From: a virus
Lineage: Monodnaviria; Loebvirae; Hofneiviricota; Faserviricetes; Tubulavirales; Inoviridae
Length of the DNA: 6,655 nt
IMG/VR virus record: IMGVR_UViG_2547132255_000001
Location: 1 to 6,655 of that record
Reading direction: 5' to 3' (one strand)
Both the position numbers and the translations under genes were made by a program. The notes beneath the pieces were generated by a model. That model searched no databases. It saw nothing but the letters and a program-made list of their open reading frames with translations, and was not told where the DNA came from. The stretch's first letter is position 1; each line of letters begins with the position of its first letter. Shown here piece by piece: positions 530 to 6,189 of the stretch.

Positions 530-557
530 ATTTAACATAATATACATTATGCGCACC
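530..557 (-). other. dif: dif-type XerC/XerD recombination site forming the host-prophage junction
   Basis: Minus-strand reading of 530-557 is GGTGCGCATAA-TGTATA-TTATGTTAAAT, which matches the E. coli dif sequence as I recall it (11-bp XerC arm, 6-bp central region, 11-bp XerD arm). The XerD arm (530-540) faces the host gene and the XerC arm (547-557) faces the prophage. Confidence 0.85.
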
Positions 558-2580: not shown

Positions 2581-3590
2581 TATTTTTTCCCCGTATAAAG
2601 CGTCACACGCTCACCATCAATAATTCCGCTCATCAACATCCCTTTATAATTAAAACTGGATGCAGGAACGGCACGCAAAACACCGGCACCGTTAACAAGA
2701 ATCACAAACGCCCTGCCTTCACTGGTCATTCTCCCTGATATACGCCACTCGGTTGAAAGTGGCGGTTCAGCTGGTTCTGAGGGAGTAGCAGCGGAAGAAC
2801 GAAACATGGCCGCATCACGTACATCTGTTGTAGTCAAATCTGGCGAGGGATCGCTTCGGCCAAACGTGCTGAAAAATGAGTAAATCAGCCAGCCTGACCC
2901 GATAAACATCAATGGAAAAAGCACAAGAAAGAACCTGACTTTGCCAGAATTCCAGATGCTCTGGCGTTTATCTGTCTGCTTTTCATTACCGTTATTTCCT
3001 TCATAGCTTTTGTAAAGTTCAAAAATATCAGGGTTATATTTATTGCGATAACTGGTGACGAGGTTGCTTTTATAGATTTTGTGGCCTGAATATACGTCAA
3101 TGCAGTAATGATTATTCAGGCCCAACGCTTTCAGCTTGCGCATCCGGTAAGTTGTTTCTATTTTGTCTTTCAGAAAGCGAGCAATATTAGAAAGTGACTG
3201 ATTTACAATAACCAAATCACAGCTAATACCCGTTTCAGGGTGCGTAAAATGACGATGTTCAGCAATAAATGATTTCTTCTCAGCCGTCATATCCTTATCG
3301 CTACCGAAGATTCGCCATGCTTCATCAATAACAATTAAATCACCAAACTGGCAAAAGCTCCCTTCCCCACCTTTAAAAGGAAAGAAATCTGCTTTAAGCA
3401 CATCATCATTATCCACAACAATAATTTCTCCCGTTGCATCAGGATAACGTTCGGTGATTTTATCTTTTTGTAAACCATAAATGTTCGTCACAACTCTCCG
3501 GCCGCTGGTAAATGCCGGAATAATGACATTGCAAACGGCTTCATAACTTTTTCCTGAGCCGGGTATGCCAATATATGCAGAAATAGCCAT
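2580..3590 (-). CDS. Filamentous-phage assembly ATPase (pI / Zot family), 336 aa
   Basis: N-terminal Walker A GIPGSGKS, Walker B-like LIVIDEAW, and one internal hydrophobic transmembrane segment (FFLVLFPLMFIGSGWLIYSFF) as in pI. Positioned between gVI-like and secretin genes. Confidence 0.85.
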   Translation of the reverse strand: MAISAYIGIPGSGKSYEAVCNVIIPAFTSGRRVVTNIYGLQKDKITERYPDATGEIIVVDNDDVLKADFFPFKGGEGSFCQFGDLIVIDEAWRIFGSDKDMTAEKKSFIAEHRHFTHPETGISCDLVIVNQSLSNIARFLKDKIETTYRMRKLKALGLNNHYCIDVYSGHKIYKSNLVTSYRNKYNPDIFELYKSYEGNNGNEKQTDKRQSIWNSGKVRFFLVLFPLMFIGSGWLIYSFFSTFGRSDPSPDLTTTDVRDAAMFRSSAATPSEPAEPPLSTEWRISGRMTSEGRAFVILVNGAGVLRAVPASSFNYKGMLMSGIIDGERVTLYTGKK

Positions 3591-3893: not shown

Positions 3894-5606
3894 TTAGGCA
3901 CTCAGAATAATACGGAGCGCAACAAATCCCCATATAATCAGAAATATGGTTTCTACGGCGCTTCTGTTCTGCTCAATTAACGGACAATGGGAGTCAATTC
4001 TGTACTGGTGATTAAACACGCTGAATTCAACAACGGGGCAGGATGCTGAACGAGAGCCGATGTTAAATTCGTTTGTAAAAGGCAACAAGTTAATAATTGG
4101 CGTTAAAATATCTCTTGCCGTTGGCGTTTCTTCAAGCTCAGGCTCTTTTACACCGGGATCTTCTCCCAAATCTATATTGCCATTATTTCCAGTGTCAGAT
4201 CCTGAGTTGTTATTAATGGTAATATCAATATTGACGTCAGCCCCTGCACTGTCAGATACAGGTGAAAGCATATCTAATAACGTTGGAGATAGCCTAAGTT
4301 CCGACATCGCAGAAGTTACTTCAGCCGGTGAAACCTCTTTAAACGGTAAGCCGTTATAATCGGCATTAACGGCAGCTTCAGACCACAGCTCGTTAATCAT
4401 GTCGGCAAGAAGTGCTGGCGATACACTAACACTATCAAGATACTCCAGATAATCAATCATGGACTCAATATTTCCGGCCTCCAGTACTTCCGTCATGGCT
4501 TTATATTTGGTATTGGTCCAGATAGTAAGCTCACTCTTTTCATCAATATCTTTTGTGGTGTAATCCTCTTTTTCAGGAACGGCGCAAATCGTCGAATATC
4601 CACCATTTGACTGATTAGTCGTTTTACAAGGCGTGTTGTGATACTGATATTGCTTTCCTGCTGTTAAATAAGCAACGCTGTAATACATGGGAAGCCCTGC
4701 TACATTTTCATACATGGGAATACCTGCGGGAAATGAAGATGCGGCCGGGTTGCTATACAAGTGTGTAATCTCAGGAATTTCATAAAATGAGGAAGGATAA
4801 GTAAACTTATAATTCTGTTCAGTAAAGGAGACATCTCCATTACTGTTGACAACTTTATTCGTCACAGTGCGTTCAAAATTCGTTAGTGTTTCAGTATAAG
4901 TACGCGAGTTATAGTCATTAAGATAATTTCTGGCAATTTCAGTTGGATTATCACCATAGTAATAAATTAGCTCTTTCGAATCCTGATAATAATAAAGTGC
5001 ATTATCTGGCGTGGAATATCCTGTTTCAACACCTACAACTGGAGAACCCGCATCCACATTATTACGACTAACATGAAGGATTACCGGACTTAATTCCTGT
5101 GGTTCAAAATTAACGGTTATCGTCTTACTTTCACCACTTTGACCACTGTACGTTACTTCATATAAATTATCGGAAATCTTTTTACCGTTAGTCATTACCA
5201 TTACCGAGCCGTCAGATGAACTCAAAGAAGACGGAACAAAAGATGATACAGCAGCAGCAATACCCGCCCACGTTGCAACACCGCTCATTTTGTATGATGA
5301 GGCAGCAGGCAAGTATTCGGCAGCATTAGCCGCAGCACGGCCAACAAAAACACGGGTTGCTGTAAGCTGTGATGCCGTATAAATCGCATCATTGGCAGCA
5401 AAGCGACGAACAAGCACCCGGCCAACGACTTTAGGAATAACAGCCCGCGCAGCCACTGCTGCAATTGCTGGTACAAATGAATATGAATATCGGGGAAAGG
5501 AAACCCAGAGAAAGGAAAAAATAAAGGAATAAACCGTCAGCCTCTTAGCCCAAGAATAACGACATAAGCTGAGACGATCCCCCATAAAAGGGAACCCAAT
5601 TTCCAT
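3894..5606 (-). CDS. Adsorption / minor coat protein pIII-like, 570 aa; start codon uncertain
   Basis: Largest ORF in the structural module, directly after gVIII and its terminator. Ser/Thr/Asn/Tyr-rich central region, Gly/Asn/Asp-rich linker (NNNSGSDTGNNGN) and C-terminal hydrophobic anchor (TIFLIIWGFVALRIILSA) as in pIII. GGAG 8 nt upstream of the ATG at 5606. N-terminal 110 aa are atypical. Confidence 0.6.
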   Translation of the reverse strand: MEIGFPFMGDRLSLCRYSWAKRLTVYSFIFSFLWVSFPRYSYSFVPAIAAVAARAVIPKVVGRVLVRRFAANDAIYTASQLTATRVFVGRAAANAAEYLPAASSYKMSGVATWAGIAAAVSSFVPSSLSSSDGSVMVMTNGKKISDNLYEVTYSGQSGESKTITVNFEPQELSPVILHVSRNNVDAGSPVVGVETGYSTPDNALYYYQDSKELIYYYGDNPTEIARNYLNDYNSRTYTETLTNFERTVTNKVVNSNGDVSFTEQNYKFTYPSSFYEIPEITHLYSNPAASSFPAGIPMYENVAGLPMYYSVAYLTAGKQYQYHNTPCKTTNQSNGGYSTICAVPEKEDYTTKDIDEKSELTIWTNTKYKAMTEVLEAGNIESMIDYLEYLDSVSVSPALLADMINELWSEAAVNADYNGLPFKEVSPAEVTSAMSELRLSPTLLDMLSPVSDSAGADVNIDITINNNSGSDTGNNGNIDLGEDPGVKEPELEETPTARDILTPIINLLPFTNEFNIGSRSASCPVVEFSVFNHQYRIDSHCPLIEQNRSAVETIFLIIWGFVALRIILSA

Positions 5607-5670: not shown

Positions 5671-5862
5671 TTATGCGGATTTAACGGTACGCAATACCCA
5701 GCGAACGCCAGCGACACCGGCATAAAGTGTTACCAGTGAAGCAGCAACGGCCATAATCGCAACCAGAACTGTACTGAAATCAATGCTGTTCGTCAGCGGC
5801 GATAAATCAACACCACTTGATGCCGCTCCTTCTGCAGCGAAAGTCGCGCCAGAAACAGCCAT
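5671..5862 (-). CDS. Major coat protein pVIII-like, as called from ATG 5862; the probable true start is ATG 5903 in another frame, so the gene appears frameshifted
   Basis: Mature-protein architecture after an AxA site: acidic N-terminus AEGAASSGVD, hydrophobic core, basic C-terminus RWVLRTVKSA. The ATG at 5862 has no Shine-Dalgarno and leaves only a 9-aa leader. A GGAG-preceded ATG at 5903 encodes MFKK and is out of frame by one nucleotide at the A6 run 5892-5897. Confidence 0.7.
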   Translation of the reverse strand: MAVSGATFAAEGAASSGVDLSPLTNSIDFSTVLVAIMAVAASLVTLYAGVAGVRWVLRTVKSA

Positions 5863-5937
5863 TAATGCAGGTACAGCCAGAAAACTAACGATTTTTTAAA
5901 CATAACTCTATCTCCATTACATTTTAAAGGTTCGCAT

Positions 5938-6189
5938 TCAAGCAGTACGAACCATCTTTATTACCTGTCCCACACCTACAGAAAAAAGCCAGAGCAGCAG
6001 GACAGAGCCAAAACCTAATGTCCAGTAATTTCCCATTGCAGAATAATCAATTTGATGAAATGGTTCAGAACGTACCATTATTGCCTGACATTCTTTTGCA
6101 TTGTTCGCATTACATAAATAACCTTCAATACGGTAACCATTTTCAGGAATATGATTATCAAACTGAATATCGAAACCTGATGTATCCAT
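5938..6189 (-). CDS. Hypothetical small membrane protein in the position of the Ff pVII/pIX minor coat genes, 83 aa
   Basis: Lies between the gV-like and gVIII genes; start is 2 nt after the gV-like stop. C-terminal hydrophobic segment WTLGFGSVLLLWLFSVGVGQVI. Assignment is by synteny only. Confidence 0.4.
   Translation of the reverse strand: MDTSGFDIQFDNHIPENGYRIEGYLCNANNAKECQAIMVRSEPFHQIDYSAMGNYWTLGFGSVLLLWLFSVGVGQVIKMVRTA

What the first reader, a model, noticed from the sequence alone, without database searches (positions are those of the whole stretch)
5671..5915. Major coat protein gene is split from its signal peptide by a 1-nt frame discrepancy in an A6 homopolymer
The ATG at 5903-5901 (minus strand), with GGAG 8 nt upstream, opens MFKK and then stops after 13 codons. 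Shifting -1 inside the A6 run (5892-5897) gives MFKKIVSFLAVPALMAVSGATFA|AEGAASSG..., a textbook 23-aa signal peptide with an AxA cleavage site fused to the mature coat protein. The hydrophobic IVSFLAVPAL stretch sits in supposedly non-coding sequence, which argues the leader is real. As written, the ORF from ATG 5862 has only a 9-aa leader and could not be exported. This is either a homopolymer sequencing error, an inactivating or phase-variable indel, or a -1 ribosomal slip; low-efficiency slippage is hard to reconcile with a protein needed in thousands of copies.
Basis: partly seen in the sequence, partly recalled or inferred. Interest (0 to 1): 0.75.

Follow-up and report, generated by a model that had tools for sequence, protein, structure and literature searches.

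The report
Coat gene missing one A
The major coat protein gene of a well-known filamentous prophage (CUS-1/YpfΦ type) is one adenine short in a run that is A7 in almost every other copy, so it is either a base-calling slip or a recent knock-out mutation, and not a programmed frameshift.

Summary
On the minus strand, ATG 5903-5901 has GGAG 8 nt upstream. It opens MFKK, runs through A6 (5897-5892) and stops after 13 codons. One extra A gives a 77-aa precursor: a 23-aa signal peptide, then AEGAASSG...

The window is a dif-integrated CUS-1/YpfΦ-family inovirus prophage of E. coli, with a perfect dif at 530-557.

Nearly every other copy has A7 and one intact 77-codon ORF:
- 91 of 100 complete E. 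coli records carry the exact A7 sequence, and 9 are same-length variants.
- All 11 metagenome occurrences are A7.
- All 18 close IMG/VR relatives are A7, as are Y. pestis and K. spallanzanii.

Diverged homologues (69-88 aa) all keep an in-frame 19-30-aa leader, and the internal Met is not conserved.

One-A-short alleles are rare singletons, each otherwise identical to an intact relative. Some are probably artefacts: NU14 is a PacBio-only assembly that PGAP flags "frameshifted", and one TUM14759 copy is error-rich. At least one is probably genuine: a short-read Y. enterocolitica draft.

Nothing supports programmed frameshifting. The out-of-frame state is not conserved, there is no in-frame X XXY YYZ heptamer, and there is no stimulatory structure.

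Verdict: an ordinary homopolymer −1 indel. Artefact and genuine pseudogene are about equally likely, and I lean slightly to artefact. Interest is low.

The parts
5671..5903 (-). Major coat (pVIII-type) precursor gene of the prophage. Here it is disrupted. With A7 it would be one 77-codon ORF plus stop.
   Evidence: It is identical to the intact 234-nt CDS WP_000473544.1 of UTI89, strain 998 and NU14 copy 2, apart from one missing A. It matches PHROG 2186 'virion structural protein' at E 4e-29 over residues 1-77. Pfam Phage_Coat_B is the top hit but lies below the cut-off. Sources name the protein 'major capsid protein'.
5892..5897 (-). The A6 homopolymer, which is A7 in intact copies. It encodes Lys3-Lys4 plus the first base of Ile5 in the signal peptide's basic n-region. 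This is the site of the 1-nt deficit.
   Evidence: Alignment of the window and NU14 copy 1 (A6) against UTI89 (A7) shows this as the only difference. In intact relatives this A7 is the longest homopolymer of the 6.6-kb stretch.
5912..5915 (-). Shine-Dalgarno GGAG, 8 nt upstream of ATG 5903.
   Evidence: Direct reading. It is conserved in all close relatives.
5862..5903 (-). The 13-codon stub ORF (MFKKSLVFWLYLH) created by the frameshift. Its stop, TAA 5864-5862, overlaps ATG 5862-5860 (TAATG).
   Evidence: Direct reading.
5835..5903 (-). The stretch that encodes the 23-aa signal peptide once the frame is restored (MFKK / IVSFLAVPALMAVSGA / TFA). Cleavage is predicted before AEGAASSG.
   Evidence: Translation of the A7 allele. 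TFA|AEG aligns with M13 procoat SFA|AEG at the same residues, 21-26. Diverged relatives end their leaders in xFA|(A)E.
5671..5862 (-). The residual 63-aa ORF: a 9-aa leader remnant plus the 54-aa mature coat. The mature part has an acidic N-terminus, a hydrophobic core (TVLVAIMAVAASLVTLYAGVAGV) and a basic C-terminus (RWVLRTVKSA).
   Evidence: This exact 63-aa product is called on 109 public contigs.
530..557 (-). A perfect 28-bp dif site at the host/prophage junction. This is context: it identifies the element as a XerCD/dif-integrated inovirus.
   Evidence: 0 mismatches, and 0 of 200 shuffles give a match. The YpfΦ review describes a reconstituted dif at the prophage's 3' end (PMC4266046).

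Best explanation
The locus is the ordinary pVIII-type major coat gene of a CUS-1/YpfΦ-family, dif-integrated filamentous prophage.

Its normal form is a single 77-codon ORF:
- a strong SD and ATG;
- a 23-aa signal peptide whose Lys-Lys-Ile codons (AAA AAA ATC) make an A7 run;
- leader-peptidase cleavage after T-F-A;
- a 54-aa mature coat with an acidic N-terminus, a transmembrane/packing helix and a basic DNA-binding C-terminus.

In this record the run is one A short. I take this to be a non-programmed homopolymer -1 indel. My best single guess is a consensus under-call of the longest homopolymer in the region during sequencing or assembly. On that reading the real prophage has an intact coat gene.

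Shown: the wild-type state is A7; the A6 allele is rare; it sits at the tips of the tree.
Inferred: that this particular instance is an artefact rather than a true deletion. The umbrella claim 'non-programmed 1-nt deletion relative to an intact A7 gene' I hold at about 0.93. The artefact sub-claim carries the confidence given below.
For: 1. A7 is the norm. 91 of 100 complete E. coli records carry the exact A7 82-mer, and 9 are same-length substitution variants. Only NU14 has an A6 copy. All 11 metagenome occurrences are A7. All 18 close IMG/VR relatives are A7, as are Y. pestis NCTC5923 and K. spallanzanii.

2. Every A6 record is otherwise identical to an A7 relative:
- window vs strain 998: 2 SNPs plus this gap in 6.6 kb;
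- NU14 copy 1 vs copy 2 and vs UTI89: 0 mismatches, 1 gap;
- L004 (Y. pestis PBM19) vs NCTC5923: 0 mismatches, 1 gap;
- L008 vs L016: 0 mismatches, 1 gap.
So the allele sits only at tips, with no sign of inheritance.

3. The platforms fit an artefact in several cases.
- NU14 was assembled from PacBio RSII reads only (PMC5477200), and PGAP flags the gene as 'frameshifted'.
- The one-A-short copy in TUM14759 carries roughly 20 other small indels over 6 kb relative to a Logan contig.
- PBM19 was assembled from mixed Illumina, 454 and/or PacBio data. [quoted passage not shown]

4. In intact copies the A7 is the longest homopolymer of the whole window, so it is the most error-prone site.

5. All six one-base alleles seen are deletions and none is an insertion. 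Under-calling is the typical direction of long-read consensus error (my own knowledge).
Against: - The window has no other indel against its nearest relative, so its source is not a generally error-rich assembly.
- At least one A6 instance comes from paired-end short-read data, where A7 miscalls are rare. This is L008, Y. enterocolitica Ye.4, from a lineage documented to have gained 41 small indels. Genuine A7-to-A6 deletions therefore do occur.
- Unambiguous real lesions remove the same gene's 5' end in other strains: a 38-nt deletion, a gII-coat fusion deletion and a rearrangement (L003, L006, L007, L009). Coat-gene decay in this prophage family is real.
- The window's source assembly and its sequencing platform could not be identified. 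It is not among RefSeq complete E. coli genomes.
- The odd 6,655-base length could mean a short-read contig.
Confidence: 0.5

Rival explanations
1. It is a genuine, recent A7-to-A6 replication-slippage deletion that inactivates the coat gene of this prophage copy, making it a pseudogene. Translation from the strong SD ends after 13 codons. At most a leaderless 63-aa product is made, so this copy cannot supply export-competent procoat and cannot make virions unless an intact tandem copy complements it. The mutation is neutral or mildly beneficial to the host and is not a selected switch.
For: - An A6 allele is present in a short-read draft of an in-host-evolved Y. enterocolitica lineage that accumulated 41 small indels.
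- A one-A-short N-V-N-type allele appears in a Logan contig that is otherwise clean (L012).
- Four other loci carry larger, undeniably real deletions or rearrangements of the coat gene's 5' end.
- The window is otherwise clean against strain 998.
- Tandem arrays are common: the median is 2 places per genome, and the review reports 2-4 copies (PMC4266046). This relaxes selection on any one copy.
Against: - The allele is rare: about 1 of 184 places in complete E. coli genomes, and 0 of 32 in the unbiased samples.
- It was never seen shared by diverged strains.
- Several documented instances lie in long-read or mixed-platform assemblies, where homopolymer under-calls are expected.
Confidence: 0.38
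2. The A-tract is a contingency (phase-variation) locus. Reversible A7/A6 slippage, or A8/A7 in the N-V-N variant, switches virion production off and on in a subpopulation, and the tract is kept for that purpose.
For: One-A-short alleles recur independently on at least five backgrounds: the window's E. coli, NU14, Y. pestis PBM19, Y. enterocolitica Ye.4, and L010. They also occur in both leader variants. NU14 holds ON and OFF copies side by side.
Against: - The tract is short. Known contingency tracts are usually 8-9 or more units, and A/T runs slip less than G/C runs (my own knowledge).
- The OFF frequency is about 1% or less, and several instances are explicable as sequencing error.
- Diverged relatives have no homopolymer in the leader, so the tract is not a conserved family feature.
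- A simpler reason for the run exists. Lys codons of the basic n-region followed by an A-initial codon produce it, and A-rich early codons favour high expression (my own knowledge).
- The neighbouring gene's T6 run also shows one-base-short alleles, so the coat tract is not special.
Confidence: 0.05
3. It is programmed recoding. Either -1 ribosomal frameshifting or transcriptional slippage on the A6 run fuses the leader to the coat, so the gene as written is functional.
For: A P-site tRNA-Lys could re-pair perfectly one base back within A6, which would give exactly MFKK-IVSF... (sequence reading). A strong SD drives ribosomes onto the run.
Against: - Recoding sites are conserved as out-of-frame arrangements. 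Here about 99% of copies and all homologues are simply in frame.
- There is no in-frame X XXY YYZ heptamer. The zero-frame reading is U AAA AAA U.
- There is no notable downstream structure: z = -1.4, and 20 of 200 shuffles fold at least as well.
- A6 is too short for efficient E. coli RNA polymerase slippage, which needs about 9 or more (my own knowledge).
- A coat protein needed in thousands of copies per virion cannot rely on slippage at the percent level.
- PGAP treats the same allele as a frameshifted pseudogene.
Confidence: 0.02
4. It is a leaderless coat. Ribosomes that finish the 13-codon stub reinitiate at the overlapping TAATG and make the 63-aa protein. YidC inserts this protein N-out without a signal peptide, as for Pf3 coat, and it still assembles with a 9-aa N-terminal extension.
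For: The stop-start overlap TAATG lies at 5864-5860. The N-terminal tail is acidic and the C-terminus basic, which fits N-out topology (sequence reading). Pf3 coat is naturally leaderless, and pVIII tolerates short N-terminal extensions in phage display (my own knowledge).
Against: - Every full-length homologue retains a 19-30-aa leader, and the internal Met is not conserved.
- The TAATG exists only because of the frameshift. In A7 copies it reads in frame as A-L-M-A.
- The translocated tail would be about 30 aa, longer than Pf3's.
- The allele is rare and sits only at tips.
Confidence: 0.02

Closest known systems
CUS-1/CUS-2 prophage of E. coli O18:K1:H7 and YpfΦ of Yersinia pestis (Gonzalez et al. 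2002; Derbise et al. 2007; review PMC4266046)
   Same: - The gene order matches: gII-type replication protein, G5P-like ssDNA-binding protein, small membrane protein, coat, pIII-like protein, DUF2523/pVI, Zot/pI, secretin.
- The element is integrated at dif, with a perfect dif at the junction.
- Tandem copies are common.
- The window is about 99.2% identical to the Y. pestis locus over 4 kb.
- UPEC strains UTI89 and NU14 carry the same element.
   Different: There is one A fewer in the coat leader. Otherwise this is simply another copy of the known phage family. No named CUS-1 record was available in the collections I searched: the INPHARED phage collection gave no match. The identification therefore rests on the review's description and on the Y. 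pestis loci.
Ff (M13/fd/f1) gene VIII procoat
   Same: - The architecture matches: a leader of about 23 aa with a basic n-region, then cleavage at S/T-F-A|A-E-G at the same residues 21-26.
- The mature protein is short, with an acidic N-terminus, a hydrophobic helix and a basic C-terminus.
- The gene sits upstream of the pIII-like adsorption gene.
   Different: There is no significant sequence similarity beyond the 6-residue cleavage motif (BLASTP E 0.08). There is no PDB sequence hit. The best Pfam family is Phage_Coat_B (PF05356, as that Pfam library describes it: 'Inovirus Coat protein B'), and the score is below its threshold.
Homopolymer indel errors and frameshifted pseudogenes in long-read bacterial assemblies
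   Same: It is a single-base under-call in the longest A/T run of the region. PGAP gives the identical allele a 'frameshifted' flag in PacBio-only NU14. The one-A-short copy in TUM14759 is indel-rich.
   Different: The platform of the window's source is unknown. One A6 instance comes from short reads.
Programmed -1 frameshift sites (for example dnaX A AAA AAG, or IS911)
   Same: An A-rich lysine-codon run lies downstream of an SD-like element.
   Different: The out-of-frame state is not conserved, there is no proper in-frame heptamer, and there is no stimulatory hairpin at the right spacing.

Membership tests
CUS-1/YpfΦ-type dif-integrated inovirus prophage | Integration at the chromosomal dif site, with an intact dif at the prophage end | tested here: met
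   A perfect 28-bp dif lies at 530-557, between the host flank and the phage genes. In relatives the locus lies next to hipBA, tam and yneE in the terminus region.
CUS-1/YpfΦ-type dif-integrated inovirus prophage | Module order: replication (gII, G5P), then morphogenesis (small proteins, coat, pIII-like, pVI-like), then secretion (Zot/pI, secretin) | tested here: met
   ORF list. The window's G5P-like protein matches Pfam Putative_G5P. PGAP annotation of the equivalent genes in NU14, UTI89 and strain 998 gives the phage replication protein II/X, DUF2523, Zot and secretin (GspD) assignments, and precomputed Pfam hits on related loci give Phage_CRI, DUF2523, Zot and Secretin.
CUS-1/YpfΦ-type dif-integrated inovirus prophage | Near-identity (about 99% nt) to YpfΦ of Y. 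pestis | tested here: met
   The window is 99.25% identical to L004 (Y. pestis PBM19) over 3,986 nt. L004 is identical to Y. pestis NCTC5923 apart from the A.
Inovirus major coat protein (pVIII type) | A small precursor (about 45-90 aa) with a cleavable N-terminal signal peptide, and a mature protein with an acidic N-terminus, a hydrophobic helix and a basic C-terminus | tested here: met
   This is met for the restored A7 reading. It is not met by the sequence as written, which separates the leader from the mature part.
Inovirus major coat protein (pVIII type) | A match to a curated coat-protein profile above threshold | tested here: inconclusive
   Pfam PF05356 Phage_Coat_B is the top hit for all 5 family members, but the score is 18.9 bits against a cut-off of 23.5. 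Several homologues carry a precomputed PF05356 hit. PHROG 2186 'virion structural protein' matches at E 4e-29. NCBIfam gives nothing.
Inovirus major coat protein (pVIII type) | The protein is the predominant component of purified virions | not testable with these tools
   This needs virion proteomics. The review reports only that disruption of the morphogenesis-module gene YPO2277 abolishes particle production, and the text I read does not say which protein YPO2277 encodes.
Programmed -1 ribosomal frameshift | The out-of-frame two-ORF arrangement is conserved among relatives | tested here: not met
   Relatives are in frame in about 99% of copies and in all diverged homologues.
Programmed -1 ribosomal frameshift | A slippery heptamer X XXY YYZ in the zero frame, plus a downstream or upstream stimulator | tested here: not met
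   The zero-frame reading is U AAA AAA U. The downstream fold has z = -1.4, and 20 of 200 shuffles fold at least as well.
Phase-variable (contingency) homopolymer locus | Frequent tract-length polymorphism, within and between closely related strains, that produces ON and OFF states | tested here: inconclusive
   OFF alleles recur on at least 5 backgrounds, but at about 1% frequency or less, and some are attributable to sequencing error.
Phase-variable (contingency) homopolymer locus | The tract is conserved as a feature of the gene family | tested here: not met
   Diverged homologues have leaders without any long homopolymer.

The most novel reading that the evidence does not exclude
The Lys-Lys-(Ile/Asn) A7/A8 run at the start of the coat leader acts as a mutational off-switch for virion production in CUS-1/YpfΦ-family prophages. 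It slips recurrently and independently in E. coli, Y. pestis, Y. enterocolitica and other Enterobacterales. Lysogens could then silence costly phage secretion while keeping the prophage, and tandem copies or back-slippage could restore production.
Probability: 0.06. Interest if true: 0.45.

Novelty: already known. Interest (0 to 1): 0.1.

Why it matters
It matters little beyond annotation hygiene.

- If the missing A is an artefact, the record needs one base corrected, and the prophage has an intact coat gene.
- If it is genuine, this prophage copy is a coat-defective pseudogene copy. It cannot by itself produce CUS-1/YpfΦ-type virions. That is relevant only to anyone using this strain to study phage production or the modest fitness effects ascribed to these prophages.

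The useful general point is that the A7 run in the coat leader is the weakest spot of this phage family's sequence. Its state should be checked before a lysogen is called phage-competent or phage-defective.

Tried and rejected
1. Programmed frameshifting. I checked conservation of the out-of-frame state, the heptamer and the downstream structure. All were negative, so I rejected it.

2. Tracing the window's source genome.
- No exact match exists among RefSeq complete E. coli genomes. The best matches (strain 998, STIN_95, NC101) are one base longer.
- None of ten contigs that carry the 63-aa call is the source.
- The pIII-like protein is identical to that of strain 998, because the SNP at 5337 is synonymous. 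An exact-protein look-up therefore could not single out the source.

3. The INPHARED phage collection, searched in distant mode, gave no match.

4. Sequence searches of the PDB with the protein and with a 5-member profile gave no significant hit. I did not attempt structure prediction, because a single transmembrane helix would not discriminate.

I therefore could not compare contig-size distributions of intact and truncated alleles, or sample the 105 blocks of 5-10-kb contigs that carry the 63-aa call.

6. The supplements of the Y. enterocolitica in-host evolution paper do not list this locus. Whether Ye.3 shares the A6 of Ye.4 remains unknown.

7. A direct scan of IMG/VR for any tract length returned only the same 15 A7 contigs.

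Full report
**1. Observation**

I read the minus strand. GGAG lies at 5915-5912. An 8-nt spacer follows, then ATG at 5903-5901. The reading continues TTT, AAAAAA (5897-5892), TCG TTA GTT TTC TGG CTG TAC CTG CAT, then TAA at 5864-5862.

The only ORF in the coat frame runs 5862-5671 (63 aa, MAVSGATFAAEGAASSG...). No Shine-Dalgarno-like purine stretch precedes ATG 5862. Inserting one A gives MFKKIVSFLAVPALMAVSGATFA|AEGAASSG..., 77 aa. The cleavage motif is T-F-A|A rather than A-x-A.

**2. What the element is**

The window encodes, on the minus strand:
- a Putative_G5P ssDNA-binding protein (6509-6192);
- an 83-aa membrane protein (6189-5938);
- the coat gene;
- a 570-aa pIII-like protein (5606-3894);
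- a DUF2523/pVI-like protein (3881-3594);
- a Zot/pI protein (3590-2580);
- a secretin (2580-1336).

These assignments come from the ORF list, a Pfam scan of the window's G5P-like protein, PGAP annotation of the equivalent genes in relatives and precomputed Pfam hits on related loci.

A perfect 28-bp E. coli dif lies at 530-557, between these genes and a truncated host acetylxylan-esterase gene. In UTI89, NU14 and strain 998 the same element sits beside hipBA, tam and yneE. It is 99.2% identical to the Y. pestis locus.

This is the CUS-1/YpfΦ family of XerCD/dif-integrated inoviruses. The review PMC4266046 describes them as 99% identical between E. coli K1 and Y. pestis, as forming tandem arrays of 2-4 copies, and as reconstituting dif at the prophage end.

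**3. What the gene normally looks like**

- In UTI89, strain 998 and NU14 copy 2, the gene is one intact 234-nt CDS (WP_000473544.1). It differs from the window by a single extra A.
- Among RefSeq complete E. coli genomes, 100 records hold the region. 91 carry the exact A7 82-mer, 9 are same-length substitution variants, and only NU14 holds an A6 copy.
- All 11 metagenome occurrences are A7.
- All 18 close IMG/VR relatives are A7, as are Y. pestis NCTC5923 and K. spallanzanii.
- In the samples not selected for the truncated ORF, the tally is 32 A7 and 0 A6.
A leader variant, MFKKNVNF..., has an A8 run and is on 718. The 63-aa ORF is on 109.

**4. The leader is real and the short start is not**

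PHROG 2186 ('virion structural protein') aligns over residues 1-77 (E 4e-29).

A broad homologue search returned 33 clusters from E. coli, Salmonella, Citrobacter, Proteus and others. All full-length members are 69-88 aa, with a 19-30-aa leader. Each leader has a basic n-region and a hydrophobic core, and most end in x-F-A|(A)(E/D); the Proteus forms appear to end in A-L-A|S. The Met that corresponds to ATG 5862 is not conserved.

M13 procoat shares the motif SFA|AEG at the same residues, 21-26 (the M13 sequence is from my own knowledge).

Formal Pfam membership in Phage_Coat_B is sub-threshold (18.9 bits against 23.5), although it is the top hit for all five aligned members. No solved structure is detectable by sequence.

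**5. What the one-A-short alleles are**

Ten non-redundant places carry the 63-aa call.
- Four have A6: NU14; L004, which is Y. pestis PBM19; L008, which is Y. enterocolitica Ye.4; and L010.
- Two have A7 in the N-V-N variant, which needs A8: L005, a TUM14759 chromosomal copy; and L012, a Logan contig.
- Four have larger lesions that remove the gene's 5' end: a 38-nt deletion, a gII-coat fusion deletion seen in two loci, and a rearrangement.

None of the ten is the window's source.

Each A6 allele is otherwise identical to an A7 relative:
- window vs strain 998: 2 SNPs plus the gap;
- NU14 copy 1 vs copy 2 and vs UTI89: 0 mismatches;
- PBM19 vs NCTC5923: 0 mismatches;
- Ye.4 vs an E. coli-type IMG/VR contig: 0 mismatches.

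The allele is thus a recurrent change at the tips of the tree. In intact copies the A7 is the longest homopolymer of the 6.6-kb stretch.

**6. Artefact or real?**

For an artefact:
- NU14 is PacBio RSII-only (HGAP2/Quiver; PMC5477200).
- PGAP already labels the NU14 gene 'frameshifted'.
- The TUM14759 copy has roughly 20 other small indels over 6 kb.
- PBM19 is a mixed Illumina, 454 and/or PacBio assembly. Its A6 contradicts the reported 100% identity of YpfΦ across Y. pestis isolates.
- All six single-base changes are deletions.

For a genuine mutation:
- Ye.4 was sequenced with paired-end short reads. It belongs to a lineage with 41 documented small indels.
- Larger genuine deletions hit the same gene in other strains.
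- The window has no other indel against its nearest relative.

I could not obtain reads or identify the source assembly. I put about 0.50 on artefact and about 0.38 on a genuine pseudogenising deletion. I hold the umbrella statement, a non-programmed -1 homopolymer indel in an otherwise ordinary coat gene, at about 0.93.

**7. Recoding and other readings**

Programmed -1 frameshifting or transcriptional slippage is not supported:
- The out-of-frame state is not conserved.
- The zero-frame sequence U AAA AAA U is not an X XXY YYZ heptamer.
- The downstream RNA folds no better than shuffles (z = -1.4).
- A6 is shorter than the runs on which E. coli RNA polymerase slips efficiently (my own knowledge).

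Basal P-site slippage of tRNA-Lys could give trace amounts of full-length procoat. That could not supply a protein needed in thousands of copies per virion (inference).

A contingency-locus reading is not excluded but is weak. The tract is short, it is absent from diverged relatives, OFF alleles are at 1% or less, and the neighbouring gene's T6 run shows the same kind of one-base-short alleles.

A leaderless, Pf3-like product made by termination-reinitiation at TAATG is conceivable. Nothing in the comparative data supports it.

**8. Mechanism of the intact gene**

This account is inferred from Ff biology and from the sequence. The strong SD and A-rich early codons drive high expression. The 23-aa leader and the mature hydrophobic segment insert as a hairpin. 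Leader peptidase cuts after TFA. The 54-aa mature protein has an acidic N-terminus (AEGAASSGVDLSPLTNSIDFS), a hydrophobic helix and a basic C-terminus (RWVLRTVKSA). It waits in the inner membrane and is then assembled around ssDNA, through the Zot/pI-secretin machinery encoded downstream. With A6, translation from the SD stops after 13 codons and this supply is lost.

**9. Verdict**

The feature is a single-base homopolymer discrepancy in a known gene of a known prophage family. NCBI's pipeline already flags the same discrepancy in an identical allele. Novelty: already known. Interest: low.

Noticed in passing
window 530-557 (-): A perfect 28-bp E. coli dif site (GGTGCGCATAATGTATATTATGTTAAAT) lies at the junction between a truncated host acetylxylan-esterase pseudogene (1-480) and the prophage. 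None of 200 shuffles gives a match.
   Followed up: yes
window 5860-5864 (-): In the A6 allele the stop of the 13-codon stub ORF overlaps the ATG of the 63-aa ORF (TAATG), a classic termination-reinitiation arrangement. It arises only through the frameshift. In A7 copies it reads in frame as Leu-Met.
   Followed up: partly
window 5982-5987 (T6 on the minus strand, in the 83-aa gene 6189-5938); P0006; L005: The neighbouring 83-aa membrane-protein gene has a T6 run. A 70-aa Y. pestis protein (P0006, on 21 contigs) is that gene truncated by T6-to-T5, and L005 also has T5. One-base-short homopolymer alleles are therefore not unique to the coat gene.
   Followed up: partly
L003, L006, L007, L009 (around locus positions 2925-3010): Other strains carry larger lesions that remove the coat gene's 5' end. 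L006 has a 38-nt deletion that takes out the SD, the ATG and most of the leader. L007 and L009 have a deletion that fuses the replication gene to the coat ORF. L003 has a rearrangement. Coat-gene decay in this prophage family is real.
   Followed up: partly
NZ_CP128883.1 (9,565 bp) and NZ_CP128877.1, E. coli TUM14759 (H173, H174; L005): This strain has a 9.5-kb circular 'plasmid' record that is the phage itself, probably the replicative form. It also has three chromosomal places. One chromosomal copy (L005) has roughly 20 small indels over 6 kb relative to a Logan contig of the same phage type.
   Followed up: partly
P0004, P0009, P0012 (cluster members); L005 and L012: A common leader variant, MFKKNVNF... 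(718 contigs), encodes Lys-Lys-Asn as an A8 run. Its one-A-short (A7) frameshifted form also occurs.
   Followed up: partly
NU14 chromosome NZ_CP019777.1, 1,654,446-1,673,373 (L001, L046): NU14 carries two tandem prophage copies. They are identical over 7.8 kb apart from the coat A-run: copy 1 is A6 and copy 2 is A7. Near-clonal UTI89 has one copy with A7.
   Followed up: yes
P0038 (Proteus mirabilis, 69 aa) vs P0036 and P0037: A Proteus homologue has an N-terminus (MRNNFNHFFIIRCRFGFWGK...) that looks like a frameshifted read of the normal leader (MNKTKLGITLITFLSSGVALA...). This suggests the same kind of leader-region indel in another phage of the family.
   Followed up: no
L008 (FWCD02000081.1, Y. 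enterocolitica Ye.4): An E. coli-type copy of this phage, identical over 3.2 kb to an IMG/VR contig apart from the A-run, sits in a Y. enterocolitica 4/O:3 isolate from a 14-year chronic infection. The paper does not mention the phage.
   Followed up: partly
window 3894-5606 (-): The start of the pIII-like gene is ambiguous. The longest ORF is 570 aa from ATG 5606, and several gene callers use it. PGAP instead annotates a 520-aa product that starts 50 codons downstream.
   Followed up: no
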